Assembly: GCA_965230455.1 (NCBI GenBank)
Contig: CBDDKY010000003.1
Location: 430,948 to 494,947, forward strand
DNA: 64,000 nt
Reading direction: 5' to 3'
Source of the DNA: Gammaproteobacteria bacterium
GTDB taxonomy: Bacteria; Pseudomonadota; Gammaproteobacteria; CBDDKY01
Both the position numbers and the translations under genes were made by a program. Below, in pieces: positions 60,436 to 61,747 of the stretch. Every line of letters starts with the position of its first letter. The stretch's first letter is position 1. The notes under the pieces were generated by a model. The model worked only from the letters and a program-made list of their open reading frames with translations. It did not search any database and was not told where the DNA came from.

Positions 60436-60794
60436 ATATACCTCTCGTCATAAATCCTCCTTGATAGTGATTTAATTAGGGCGTGTCATCAATGACCCTT
60501 TTTTGCTGCAAACGGCGTGCATTTTCGCGACGAAGTCATTGATGACACGCCTTAGATAACGGCTTGATTCTACATGCTTTTTTACTCTGTGTCAAATTTT
60601 TGTTCATATAATTGACACCGTCCGGCAGGAAGGTATTTACAACATTAATCGACTGAATTATAGTGAAAAAATGTTCTGATATTGACAATGAATGAGGTTT
60701 TTACAGCAAAAGCTGCTTAGTTATAGTCCCCGCAGTTGAAAGTTCGGGAAATTATTTGTTAATGTGATAACATAAGTTTTATATTTTAGCGCCT

Positions 60795-60915
60795 GGATGT
60801 TAGTCAGATTTGGACAATTTTTACTGAAAAAACGAGGATTTTAGCTATTCTAAATGACAAGTTTTTTCAGTAAAAATTGTTCAAAGATGGCTGGCAGACA
60901 GACAGCTAAAACCCG
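60795..60915 (+). other. Conserved ~110-nt structured element (family E, copy 2) upstream of or overlapping the start of the LuxR-family gene
   Basis: See copy 1. The stem AATTTTTACTGAAAA / TTTTCAGTAAAAATT carries compensatory changes relative to copy 1. Confidence 0.5.
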
Positions 60916-60940
60916 AGGTTTCAACTGCGGGGACTATAGT

Positions 60941-61747
60941 ATGAATGAATTTGAAATAACGCTTCCTAAAACAGATATTATGCTTTCAGCAGCTAGCGAA
61001 ATACATCAGCTGTGTAAGCCTTTGGAATCCTTTGGTATTAATTGCGTAAGCTATACTCGAGTTTATTCTGATGGCAGCTTTATTGATTTATCAAATCGGG
61101 CTGAGATGATGGATTATTACTATTATCGCTCCAAAGCGTATCAAGATTATATTCCTGATATTGTACCTGAGCTAATGGGCGAAGGAATTCATTTGGTTTC
61201 AAACTTTGCCTGTGATGAGGCAACGCGAGAGCTGCGAGAAAGCTTTAATATTGATAACGTCACTGTGCTGATTACTAAACTTGATGATTACTATGAATTA
61301 TGGAATATGGGAACTGACAGAAATAGACCGGATATATTTAATTTTTATTTTAATCATCAAGACCTGCTGCAGAAATTTAGTTACTACTTTAAAGACAGGG
61401 GAGCCAATTTAATTAAGAAGTTTGAACAGGATAAAATAAAACGAAAAATTTCCTCTAGTTACAAAGCAAAAGTTAGTAAAACAATAGATACGCTTCAAAA
61501 TAAAGCAGACAAACTTAGTATTCAACTTGATGCAAAAATAGAACGTTACTACGTTAATAATAGTTTTTACTTAACAAAAAGAGAGTGCCAATGTTTGAAG
61601 CTGCTGAGTCAAGGTTTCAGCATGAAAGAAATTGGAACGGCGTTAGGCATTTCTTCAAAAACAGCAGAGTTCCATCTTGACTCTATTAAGAAAAAGTCTG
61701 GCTTAATAAAGCGTAAAGATATAATCAATTTGGCGAGAAAGCTTTAG
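60941..61747 (+). CDS. LuxR-family transcriptional regulator (C-terminal LuxR/GerE HTH)
   Basis: The C-terminus TKRECQCLKLLSQGFSMKEIGTALGISSKTAEFHLDSIKKK is a LuxR-type HTH. The start was chosen at MNEFEIT; the ORF track starts at 60854, inside the repeat. Confidence 0.7.
   Translation: MNEFEITLPKTDIMLSAASEIHQLCKPLESFGINCVSYTRVYSDGSFIDLSNRAEMMDYYYYRSKAYQDYIPDIVPELMGEGIHLVSNFACDEATRELRESFNIDNVTVLITKLDDYYELWNMGTDRNRPDIFNFYFNHQDLLQKFSYYFKDRGANLIKKFEQDKIKRKISSSYKAKVSKTIDTLQNKADKLSIQLDAKIERYYVNNSFYLTKRECQCLKLLSQGFSMKEIGTALGISSKTAEFHLDSIKKKSGLIKRKDIINLARKL

What the first reader, a model, noticed from the sequence alone, without database searches (positions are those of the whole stretch)
60780..60945. 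~110-nt conserved element with compensatory stem mutations found upstream of a LuxR-family regulator and (copy 1, 33455-33575) upstream of a DUF2789 gene
The two copies are about 80% identical: TTAGATTTGGATAATTTTTTTCGAAAAAACGAGGAT...ATTCAAAGATG and TCAGATTTGGACAATTTTTACTGAAAAAACGAGGAT...GTTCAAAGATG. In both, a ~15-nt arm (AATTTTTTTCGAAAA / AATTTTTACTGAAAA) is complementary to a second arm about 40 nt downstream (TTTTCGAGAAAAATT / TTTTCAGTAAAAATT). The differences between copies are compensatory (TCG↔CGA versus ACTG↔CAGT), which is the classical signature of selection for RNA or DNA secondary structure. Both copies end in a conserved AAAGATG, with the ATG opening a short frame; this could be a leader peptide. 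The element could be a cis-regulatory RNA, a small RNA gene, or a regulator-binding site shared by the LuxR-family gene and its target.
Basis: seen in the sequence. Interest (0 to 1): 0.6.

Follow-up and report, generated by a model that had tools for sequence, protein, structure and literature searches.

The report
Hairpin-shaped mobile DNA element (MITE)
The conserved hairpin upstream of the LuxR-type gene is one copy of a small non-coding mobile DNA element (a MITE) scattered through this genome and others. It is not a regulator made for that gene, but its fold is unusually well conserved and is specific to one strand.

Summary
The window holds four copies, not two: c1 33368-33585 (+), c2 60722-60938 (+), c4 49700-49917 (-), and a core-only copy c3 12254-12391 (+).

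Each full copy is 217-218 bp. It has terminal inverted arms starting TATA(C/G), a 35-37 nt spacer, and a ~135-nt rod-like core.

A loose core pattern recovered 24 metagenome loci. In an alignment of 25 distinct copies, 27 of 36 base pairs show compensatory changes and 96.7% of cells are paired. G·U pairs outnumber A·C mismatches 112 to 5. A tandem GA/GA loop and the apical hairpin are invariant.

The elements are intergenic and lie in any orientation relative to neighbouring genes. They have sharp ends with flanking duplications: TWA in one terminal class, TA in the class that includes the window copies.

Two orthologous "empty sites" prove insertion. One host looks like Planctomycetota, the other like Coxiellaceae.

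So this is a MITE family, absent from Rfam. The links to LuxR and DUF2789 are coincidental and the "leader peptide" is not conserved. The strand-specific fold points to selection on a single-stranded form, most likely RNA; its function is unknown.

The parts
60722..60938 (+). MITE copy c2, the copy in the finding. It is 217 bp and ends 2 nt before the ATG (60941) of the LuxR-family gene.
   Evidence: Outer arms 60722-60748 / 60912-60938 are 93% complementary. The core scores 111 bits with model R2. RNA fold -107.7 kcal/mol for the sense strand versus -88.1 for the antisense.
60722..60748 (+). Left terminal inverted arm of c2 (TATAGTCCCCGCAGTTGAAAGTTCGGG). The first TA may be a target-site duplication.
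   Evidence: The TATAGT/TATACT terminus is shared with metagenome copies L029, L013, L015, L025 and L007.
60749..60783 (+). 5' spacer between the left arm and the core. It is about 35 nt, unpaired or weakly paired, and its sequence is not conserved between copies although its length is (35-37 nt).
   Evidence: Folds. The spacer is absent from the metagenome copies, where the arm lies 1-12 nt from the core hit.
60784..60913 (+). Conserved rod-like core. It contains the base stem UUUUAGC/GCUAAAA, GA/GA internal loops, a long central helix, and the apical hairpin UUUAG-CUAUU-CUAAA.
60912..60938 (+). Right terminal inverted arm of c2. It contains GGGGA 7-8 nt before the LuxR ATG.
33368..33585 (+). 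MITE copy c1 (218 bp), between a TPR-protein gene and the DUF2789 gene. The last 8 codons and the stop of the TPR ORF lie in its left arm.
   Evidence: Arms 33368-33390 / 33563-33585. Core 33426-33562 scores 102.7 bits. ORF end 33392.
49700..49917 (-). MITE copy c4 (218 bp), on the opposite strand and antisense to both flanking genes.
   Evidence: Arms 49699-49729 / 49888-49918 are 97% complementary. Core 49722-49858 (-) scores 113.5 bits. Flanking genes.
12254..12391 (+). Copy c3. Only the core is present, with no intact outer arms. It lies between convergent genes (comM-like and an OTU-domain protein).
   Evidence: 103.5 bits. No outer inverted repeat beyond 6 nt. Flanking genes.
12185..12224 (.). 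Perfect 16-bp hairpin just upstream of c3. Its arms resemble the terminal arms of c1, d1 and c2 (motif CCTAAA(A)TCCNCAGTT). It may be a remnant arm pair or a core-less mini element.
   Evidence: (I22).
15557..15755 (-). d1, a distant relative. It has a rod hairpin with one GA/GA loop (AAGAU.../...UUAGAU) and arms CCTAAAATCCTCAGTTGAAATC. It lies next to an IS110-family transposase fragment.
   Evidence: 29-31 bits with R1 and R2. Fold. Arms (I9). Pfam.
60941..61747 (+). Neighbouring gene, not part of the element: LuxR-family (GerE-type HTH) regulator.
   Evidence: PF00196, E = 6e-13.
33626..33862 (+). Neighbouring gene, not part of the element: DUF2789 protein.
   Evidence: PF10982, E = 4.5e-29.

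Best explanation
[quoted passage not shown] A MITE is a short non-coding DNA transposon that a transposase encoded elsewhere cuts at its inverted termini and pastes into TA- or TWA-containing sites, duplicating those bases.

**Shown here.**
- The family is multi-copy and dispersed.
- It has sharp ends with inverted arms and flanking duplications.
- It is absent from orthologous sites in close relatives.
- Copies sit in any kind of intergenic position and in either orientation.
- The whole unit is an imperfect palindrome whose sense strand folds into a long rod. Stem sequence is free to vary with compensation. The GA/GA loop, the apical hairpin and the overall length are fixed.

**Inferred.**
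- The mobilising enzyme is probably a DDE transposase of the IS5 / PIF-Harbinger type (3-bp TWA duplication), and of an IS5- or IS630-like type for the TA class.
- Individual copies are scattered and orientation-neutral, so the covariation most likely reflects selection along the replicating lineage of elements. Only copies that keep the sense-strand fold go on to propagate or persist.
- The folded form is most likely the RNA made when a copy is transcribed. It would be a stable, probably nuclease-processed hairpin. Folded single-stranded DNA is a less likely alternative.
- At the LuxR-type gene the effect is incidental. The insertion puts 217 nt of hairpin between the upstream region and the ATG, and places the start region at the foot of a 27-bp stem. 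This may lower or rewire expression.
For: **Copies.** Four copies in 64 kb. 24 metagenome loci, every one a full-length hit to the model.

**Boundaries and duplications.**
- Nine near-identical copies at unrelated loci lose similarity exactly at GGACC...GGTCC and are flanked by matching TAA/TAA or TTA/TTA.
- Across this terminal class, my reading of the flanks gives 17 of 19 copies with identical 3-bp TWA on both sides.
- The second class ends TATAGT/TATACT...ACTATA/AGTATA, as do window copies c1, c2 and c4.

**Empty sites.**
- L008 reads GCGCGA[TTA]-178 bp-[TTA]GTCCCGC. Its 89%-identical counterpart L030 reads GCGCAATTAGTCCCGC.
- L007 carries 182 bp (TATAC...GTATA) 1 nt before the mpl ATG. 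Four orthologous contigs read GAGAGCTACGTATGCGT with no element.

**Position.** All copies are intergenic. Among copies between tandem genes, sense and antisense orientations split 8:8.

**Structure.** 27 of 36 pairs have double-sided changes and 96.7% of cells are paired, with 0 of 500 shuffles reaching this. Sliding the partner by one column drops pairing to about 43%.

**Strand specificity.**
- G·U 112 versus A·C 5 in the core, and 50 versus 6 in the terminal stems.
- Every copy folds 19-49 kcal/mol better as the sense strand.
- With DNA parameters the gap for c2 is 7 kcal/mol.

**Precedent.** MITEs fold into long RNA hairpins, and compensatory changes are reported for bcr1 (PMC3184786). 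Most bacterial MITEs carry a terminal TA (PMC5896051). PIF/Harbinger elements make 3-bp duplications (PMC2213677 abstract).
Against: - No autonomous element with matching termini was found. The window's transposases are an IS701/IS4-like gene with different inverted repeats, an IS110 fragment, and a 2.6-kb element whose two ORFs I judged IS21-like (istA/istB) from their translations only (TIRs).
- For the window copies the TA duplication is palindromic and merges with the arms, so it cannot be proven there. No close relative of the source genome exists to give an empty site; the next best PtsP is 62% identical.
- The three full window copies have outer arms of unrelated sequence. That is unusual if a transposase reads the arms by sequence.
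- Two terminal and duplication classes share one core. This is unexplained.
- No transcript data exist, so the RNA reading rests on G·U and G·A asymmetry alone.
- The L007 empty site fits a TA duplication only if one or two bases differed in the ancestor.
Confidence: 0.85

Rival explanations
1. A cis-regulatory leader RNA (riboswitch-like, or with a leader peptide) that controls the LuxR-family gene and the DUF2789 gene.
For: Copies c1 and c2 lie upstream of genes on the same strand. The right arm of c2 covers the probable ribosome-binding region of the LuxR-type gene. The fold is strongly conserved.
Against: - c3 lies between convergent genes, and c4 is antisense to both of its neighbours.
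- Metagenome copies show every arrangement.
- The ORF after AAAGATG runs 1-143 codons and is not conserved.
- There is no Rfam match.
- Empty sites show that the element is dispensable at orthologous loci.
Confidence: 0.03
2. A family of independently transcribed small RNA genes, trans-acting or protein-binding. The RNA would be the real functional unit and the inverted ends merely its closing stem.
For: - Covariation is as strong as in established RNA families.
- The sense strand has an excess of G·U pairs and tandem G·A loops, which are typical RNA motifs.
- Copy c2 has promoter-like matches: TTTACA-16-TATAGT, which uses the terminal TATAGT, and TTGTTA-18-TATATT just before the core.
Against: - No promoter-like site is shared by c1 and c4, and no terminator follows any copy.
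- Pairing extends to the very last base of the unit, including the would-be -10 box. A transcript starting downstream of that box could not use this pairing.
- Target-site duplications and empty sites show DNA transposition.

This rival is compatible with the MITE reading if some copies are expressed.
Confidence: 0.08
3. A DNA site bound by a regulator (for example the adjacent LuxR-type protein), shared by the regulator gene and a target gene.
For: It is an imperfect palindrome close to a regulator gene.
Against: - A 135-220 bp palindrome is far larger than an operator.
- The conserved mismatches are the same two bases (GA) on the same strand in both arms, and G·U outnumbers A·C 112:5. This has no meaning for duplex DNA recognition.
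- The family occurs in Planctomycetota-like and Coxiellaceae-like contigs next to unrelated genes.
Confidence: 0.01
4. A single-strand-DNA transposon relative (REPIN/RAYT or an IS200/IS605-type palindromic element). It would be recognised as a folded DNA strand by an HUH enzyme, which would explain the strand-specific fold.
For: - The fold is strand-specific out to the termini.
- Stem sequence is free while structure is fixed, as in structure-recognised substrates.
- The asymmetry persists, though weaker, with DNA energy parameters.
Against: - From established knowledge, these families make no target-site duplication and have no end-to-end inverted repeats. Here a 3-bp TWA duplication varies with the site and is single in the empty site.
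- No gene that looked RAYT- or TnpA-like was noticed among the window ORFs, which were judged by translation; only a subset was scanned against Pfam.
Confidence: 0.03

Closest known systems
Correia repeat-enclosed elements (CREE / NEMIS) of Neisseria
   Same: - Both are small, non-coding, multi-copy palindromic elements.
- The termini begin TATAGT. The Correia repeat is tatagtggattaac... (PMC5039591), and c2 and the L029 group begin TATAGTC....
- From my own knowledge: both show TA at the insertion site, both can insert close to start codons and supply or disturb promoters, and Correia transcripts form long hairpins cut by RNase III.
   Different: - There is no similarity beyond the first six bases.
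- The core here is a different, ~135-nt rod with invariant GA/GA loops.
- The hosts are not Neisseria.
- A second terminal class (GGRNC..., with a TWA duplication) shares the same core.

This element is not a member of the Correia family.
bcr1 of the Bacillus cereus group, and ERIC of enterobacteria (transcribed MITE-like repeats with RNA-level compensatory change)
   Same: These are dispersed non-autonomous repeats flanked by direct repeats, in which base-pair compensatory changes maintain a long double-stranded RNA structure (bcr1: PMC3184786; ERIC: my own knowledge).
   Different: - The sequences and hosts are unrelated.
- bcr1 has 5-bp direct repeats.
- Here conservation spans phyla and core G+C contents of 26-53%, with fixed non-Watson-Crick loops and a very strong strand bias.
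QMITE1 / QMITE2 of Coxiella burnetii
   Same: These are MITEs in an intracellular gammaproteobacterium that overlap gene ends, give rise to small RNAs, and serve as targets for IS110-family insertion (PMC5896051). Here, d1 lies next to an IS110-family fragment.
   Different: - Sizes and duplications differ: QMITE1 is 300-400 bp with 2-3 nt direct repeats, and QMITE2 is 150-190 bp with 7-9 bp repeats.
- No sequence comparison was possible with these tools.
Tourist-type (PIF/Harbinger) and Stowaway-type (Tc1/mariner) MITEs, and bacterial IS5 / IS630 derivatives
   Same: Both show a 3-bp TWA duplication (PIF/Harbinger: PMC2213677) or a TA duplication, short inverted termini, and no coding capacity.
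   Different: - The cognate transposase was not identified.
- Both duplication types are attached to one conserved core, which is not a described feature of those families.

Membership tests
MITE (non-autonomous DNA transposon) | Small size (about 100-400 bp) with no transposase or other conserved ORF | tested here: met
   Units are 174-184 bp in metagenomes and 217-219 bp as extracted in the window. The only recurrent ATG opens frames of 1-143 codons that are not conserved.
MITE (non-autonomous DNA transposon) | Terminal inverted repeats | tested here: met
   Arms are 13-31 nt and 78-100% complementary in c1, c2, c4 and in the metagenome copies examined. c3 lacks them.
MITE (non-autonomous DNA transposon) | Target-site duplication (family as a whole) | tested here: met
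   Left and right TWA are identical in 17 of 19 copies of the GGRNC class, by my reading of the flanks, with TAA and TTA varying by site. The empty site holds a single TTA.
MITE (non-autonomous DNA transposon) | Target-site duplication at the window copies themselves | tested here: inconclusive
   A TA flanks c1, c2 and c4. It is palindromic and continuous with the arms (TATA...TATA), so duplication cannot be separated from the repeat. The related L007 empty site fits to within 1-2 nt.
MITE (non-autonomous DNA transposon) | Many dispersed copies at unrelated loci | tested here: met
   4 copies in 64 kb. 3 copies on one 14-kb contig and 13 contigs from one sample.
MITE (non-autonomous DNA transposon) | Presence/absence polymorphism (empty sites) | tested here: met
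   Two cases among relatives of the metagenome hosts. This is not testable for the window genome because no close relative exists.
MITE (non-autonomous DNA transposon) | A cognate autonomous IS with the same termini | tested here: inconclusive
   None was found in the window or in the metagenome loci searched. The terminal motif occurs only at element ends. The window's IS701/IS4-like gene has different repeats. Whole genomes could not be searched.
Correia repeat-enclosed element | 26-bp inverted Correia repeat TATAGTGGATTAAC/A... | tested here: not met
   Only the first 6 nt (TATAGT) match when the repeat in PMC5039591 is compared with the arms listed.
Cis-regulatory leader RNA / riboswitch | Constant position in the 5' region of the regulated genes, on their strand | tested here: not met
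   Copies lie in convergent, antisense and divergent contexts.
Any Rfam 15 family | Match to a curated covariance model | tested here: not met
   No hit at gathering score in the window. A permissive scan of four loci gave only chance hairpin (microRNA-type) matches.
Leader peptide / small ORF | Conserved reading frame after the conserved ATG | tested here: not met
   Peptides run from M* and MA* up to 143 aa, and the start codon is GTG or ACG in some copies.
REPIN-RAYT / IS200-IS605 palindromic elements | No target duplication, separate subterminal hairpins, and an associated HUH (Y1) transposase | tested here: not met
   A site-specific 3-bp duplication and end-to-end pairing are present. 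No gene that looked like an HUH transposase was noticed among the window ORFs, judged by translation with a partial Pfam scan.
Independent sRNA gene | Own promoter and terminator conserved among copies | tested here: not met
   Promoter-like sites appear only at c2, and there are no terminator-like sites. Expression itself is not testable here.

The most novel reading that the evidence does not exclude
The ~135-nt rod is a functional folded single strand that the element needs in order to spread. It would be either an RNA cofactor or cargo, or a folded DNA strand recognised by shape rather than by sequence. Stems and even the terminal arms may then vary freely, while the loops, the apical hairpin and the total length stay fixed. 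On this reading, one structured module has been carried between phyla (Planctomycetota-like and Coxiellaceae/Legionellales-like hosts) on elements with two different end types.
Probability: 0.2. Interest if true: 0.7.

Novelty: new member of a known kind. Interest (0 to 1): 0.4.

Why it matters
**For annotation.** These sequences should be masked as mobile repeats. They should not be called riboswitches, small RNA genes or operator sites of the LuxR-type regulator.

**For the biology of the element.** Four features make the family a clean case for asking what, beyond the termini, a non-autonomous transposon must keep in order to propagate:
- covariation at the level of an established RNA family;
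- a very strong strand bias (G·U 112 versus A·C 5);
- invariant GA/GA loops;
- one core shared by two end and duplication types across phyla.

**For the host.** Two independent insertions lie 1-2 nt upstream of a start codon: the LuxR-type gene here, and mpl in L007. This suggests that these elements can rewire translation or transcription of neighbouring genes.

Tried and rejected
- **Strict core pattern against genome contigs.** It returned only 5 matches confined to the 33-nt pattern itself, in unrelated taxa.
- **Exact-protein look-ups of window genes.** None was on record.
- **Rfam.** Nothing at the gathering or permissive thresholds.
- **Other collections.** Viral contigs and plasmids gave no match.
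- **Shared internal promoter in the 35-37 nt spacer.** Consensus matches occur only in c2. Rejected.
- **Leader peptide.** Rejected.
- **Retron msr/msd-like layout** (end pairing, 5' unpaired part, long hairpin). Considered and dropped: the 5' part is not conserved and no reverse transcriptase gene was seen next to any window copy.
- **Guide-RNA-like role for the variable spacer.** The blastn showed no significant complementary target in the window.
- **Search for an autonomous partner.** I looked for long-range inverted repeats 0.6-3.5 kb apart. The output was too noisy. It recovered only the ends of the putatively IS21-like element (56617/59263) and a 3.3-kb inverted pair.
- **IHF-site consensus.** Checked by eye and not found.
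- **Literature search for the apical motif.** No relevant paper.
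Full report
**1. Checking the observation**

They are 79% identical over 106 nt (33430-33535 versus 60784-60889). The quoted arms pair, and the differences between copies are compensatory.

This is not chance. A 22-base pattern drawn from the conserved part matches three times in the window against 0.00 expected. 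Each region folds far better than shuffled sequence, with z = -11.7, -16.3 and -12.1.

The description was incomplete in three ways.
- blastn and a covariance model built from the copies find four copies in the window:

| Copy | Core coordinates | Strand |
|---|---|---|
| c1 | 33426-33562 | + |
| c2 | 60780-60916 | + |
| c3 | 12254-12391 | + |
| c4 | 49722-49858 | - |

  With the broader model R2 they score 102-114 bits on the sense strand and 27-42 bits on the antisense strand.
- The conserved core is about 135 nt.
- In c1, c2 and c4 the core lies inside a 217-218 bp unit: 33368-33585, 60722-60938 and 49700-49917. A further 23-31 bp stem closes each unit. Its sequence is unrelated between copies, but it always begins TATA(C/G) and ends with the complement.
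- A 35-37 nt spacer of unrelated sequence separates the left arm from the core.

**2. Relatives elsewhere**

A strict pattern scan of reference genomes gave only chance matches. The source genome is an isolated lineage: its PtsP has one 100% match, on a 1.52-Mb contig, and the next best hit is 62% identical.

A looser pattern kept only three features: AGATTT, the apical TAGYTATTCTA, and AAAGRTG at fixed spacing. It matched c1, c2 and c4 in the window and 24 metagenome loci, but no viral contig. Every one of the 24 loci gave a full-length hit to the model. Core G+C content ranges from 26% to 53%.

Named relatives of flanking proteins suggest the hosts.
- One group of contigs looks like Planctomycetota. 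An MttB-family protein is 78-83% identical to MAG proteins with that label.
- Another looks like Coxiellaceae or other Gammaproteobacteria. Its Mpl is 74-76% identical.

**3. Structure**

I made a MAFFT alignment of 25 distinct copies; it was not fitted to any structure. On it:
- RNAalifold predicts 36 pairs, and 27 of them show changes on both sides with pairing kept. Up to six pair types occur at one position.
- 96.7% of cells are standard pairs, against 76% after shuffling partners (0 of 500 shuffles reach the observed value).
- Pairing falls to about 43% when partners are slid by one column.

Several parts do not vary:
- a 2x2 internal loop with GA on both strands (AGAUUUG facing CAAAGAUG: GA in 25 of 25 copies on the 5' side and 23 of 25 on the 3' side);
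- the apical hairpin YRUAG-YUAUU-CUAYR;
- in most metagenome copies, a 6x6 loop GAUUGA/GAUUGA.

The fold belongs to one strand.
- In the core pairs, G·U occurs 112 times. A·C, which would be G·U on the other strand, occurs 5 times.
- In the terminal stems the counts are 50 and 6.
- Every copy folds 19-49 kcal/mol better as the sense strand.
- With DNA energy parameters the difference for c2 shrinks to 7 kcal/mol but remains.

No Rfam family matches.

**4. What it is**

All copies are intergenic, but their relation to neighbouring genes is arbitrary. They occur between tandem genes in the sense (8) or antisense (8) orientation, between convergent genes, and in divergent regions (window contexts).

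Nine nearly identical copies from one sample sit at unrelated loci. They lose similarity abruptly at GGACCGTGCACG... and ...CGTGCATGGTCC, and are flanked by TAA/TAA or TTA/TTA. Across this terminal class, my reading of the flanks gives 17 of 19 copies with the same 3-bp TWA on both sides.

A second class ends TATAGT/TATACT...ACTATA/AGTATA. This is consistent with a TA duplication. It includes window copies c1, c2 and c4.

Two orthologous comparisons show insertion directly.
- In L008 the element lies between GCGCGA[TTA] and [TTA]GTCCCGC. The 89%-identical region of L030 reads GCGCAATTAGTCCCGC.
- In L007 a 182-bp element (TATAC...GTATA) lies 1 nt before the mpl start codon. Four contigs encoding a 91%-identical Mpl read GAGAGCTACGTATGCGT there, with a 66-138 bp intergenic region and no element.

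Two further observations fit a population of small transposons: a core-less pair of arms (L012 1124-1177) and a copy carrying a nested second element (L027 2485-2961).

The family is therefore a MITE. The literature describes MITEs as TIR-bounded, flanked by direct repeats, often with TA at the termini, and folding into long RNA hairpins (PMC3184786; PMC5896051). Compensatory change that maintains an RNA-level structure is reported for bcr1. A 3-bp duplication is the mark of PIF/Harbinger elements (PMC2213677 abstract). From my own knowledge, their bacterial relatives are in the IS5 family.

**5. How it most likely works**

*Shown:* dispersal, inverted ends, duplications, insertion polymorphism, and a strand-specific conserved fold that reaches the last base of the unit.

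*Inferred:*
- A transposase supplied in trans mobilises the element. None with matching ends was found. The window holds an IS701/IS4-like gene with other repeats, an IS110 fragment, and a 2.6-kb element whose two ORFs look IS21-like (istA/istB) from their translations only (terminal repeats).
- Copies are orientation-neutral with respect to host genes, and selection is unlikely to act on each copy separately. The covariation is therefore best read as selection along the lineage of replicating elements: the sense-strand fold matters for propagation or persistence.
- I take the folded species to be RNA. G·U pairs and tandem G·A pairs are typical RNA features, and the sense/antisense energy gap is larger with RNA parameters. 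I cannot exclude a folded DNA strand.

Two points do not fit a simple picture.
- The outer arms of c1, c2 and c4, and of subfamilies on a single contig (L008), differ in sequence while staying complementary.
- One core is joined to two end and duplication types.

**6.

- *Regulator-binding site or dedicated leader RNA for the LuxR-type and DUF2789 genes.* The gene identities are confirmed by Pfam, but the idea is not supported, given the distribution of copies.
- *Leader peptide.* Refuted. The frame after AAAGATG is 1-143 codons long and unrelated between copies, and the start codon is GTG or ACG in some.
- *Local effect at the LuxR-type gene.* This is plausible but incidental. The element ends 2 nt before the ATG at 60941, so the start region lies at the foot of a 27-bp stem. 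The terminal TATAGT, together with an upstream TTTACA, gives a promoter-like match of 10 out of 12.

**7. Comparison with known elements, and novelty**

The closest known elements are the Correia elements of Neisseria. They share the TATAGT terminus. From my own knowledge they also share TA targets, hairpin transcripts and effects on adjacent genes. Nothing beyond those six bases matches, so this element is not a member of that family.

bcr1 and ERIC are precedents for RNA-level compensation in dispersed repeats. QMITEs are precedents in a related host group.

I found no description of this family. It is absent from Rfam, and a literature search for the apical motif found no relevant paper.

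I rate it a new member of a known kind and of moderate interest. The interest lies in the exceptional, strand-specific conservation of the rod across phyla and across two end types.

Noticed in passing
window 6277-6434, 27509-27647, 43789-43946 (all scored on the - strand): A second MITE-like family. Its inverted ends read GG(G/C)CTGTTGAC(A/G)ATTCA and are flanked by CTAG-like bases. It has a rod fold with an apical GAGGCAG-hairpin-AACGA. Model R1 detects it only weakly (25-31 bits).
   Followed up: partly
window 15557-15755 and 15082-15486: The distant relative d1 (arms CCTAAAATCCTCAGTTGAAATC) lies directly beside an IS110-family transposase fragment (PF01548). This recalls IS1111 insertions into QMITE2 in Coxiella.
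   Followed up: partly
window 12186, 15568/15723, 26700, 40569, 51168: The motif CCTAAA(A)TCCNCAGTTGAAATC recurs. It appears as the arms of d1, as a 40-bp arm-only hairpin after the comM-like gene (12185-12224), and as single copies. Parts of it also appear in the outer arms of c1 (in reversed order relative to d1) and of c2. The relationship is unexplained.
   Followed up: partly
window 21900-22121, 22320-22648, 26022-26221; also 22882-22914 versus 26165-26197: A further family of long palindromes shares CGTTGCGAGCGGCAGCGCGGCAATCCA. A pair of about 33-nt inverted repeats lies 3.3 kb apart and brackets the region 22.9-26.2 kb.
   Followed up: no
window 33368-33392 and 33200-33300: The TPR-protein ORF (31533-33392) runs into the left arm of MITE c1, which supplies its last 8 codons and its stop codon. 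Just upstream, the protein contains a tandem duplication WVQGNYLG(A/T)K.
   Followed up: no
window 60938-60943; L007 (mpl start): In two independent cases the element ends 1-2 nt before a start codon (the LuxR-type gene and mpl). In both, a purine-rich Shine-Dalgarno-like run (GGGGA, GGAG) lies in the right arm.
   Followed up: partly
window 56617-59263 and 19576-21073: Two apparently intact insertion sequences.
- A 2.6-kb element has two ORFs (521 and 251 aa) that look IS21-like (istA/istB) from their translations only; no family scan was run. Its terminal repeats begin TGTATATTCCCATTGAATCGATC. Its repeated left end gave the weak hairpin hit at 56669-56768.
- An IS701/IS4-like element has 25-bp inverted repeats.
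   Followed up: partly
window 12403-14685 (-), 59248-60435 (-), 50073-51026 (+), 51248-53455 (-): Large proteins, most without family matches, that look like candidate secreted effectors. The 760-aa protein has a C-terminal OTU cysteine-protease domain. The 395-aa and 317-aa proteins gave no Pfam or NCBIfam hit, and the 735-aa protein was not scanned. Together with 42.5% G+C and PtsP relatives labelled Gammaproteobacteria, this suggests an intracellular Legionellales- or Coxiellales-like host.
   Followed up: partly
window 15785-16401 and 25266-25736: Small ORF pairs that look like toxin-antitoxin modules (HigB/HigA-like; an MqsA-like zinc-ribbon antitoxin). This is judged from the translations only.
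   Followed up: no
L027 2485-2961; L012 1124-1177: Within the metagenome family, one copy carries a nested ~300-bp insertion of another inverted-repeat element (ends CAGAACTCCTGATCTC). One locus holds a 50-bp arm-only mini element flanked by TAA/TAA.
   Followed up: partly
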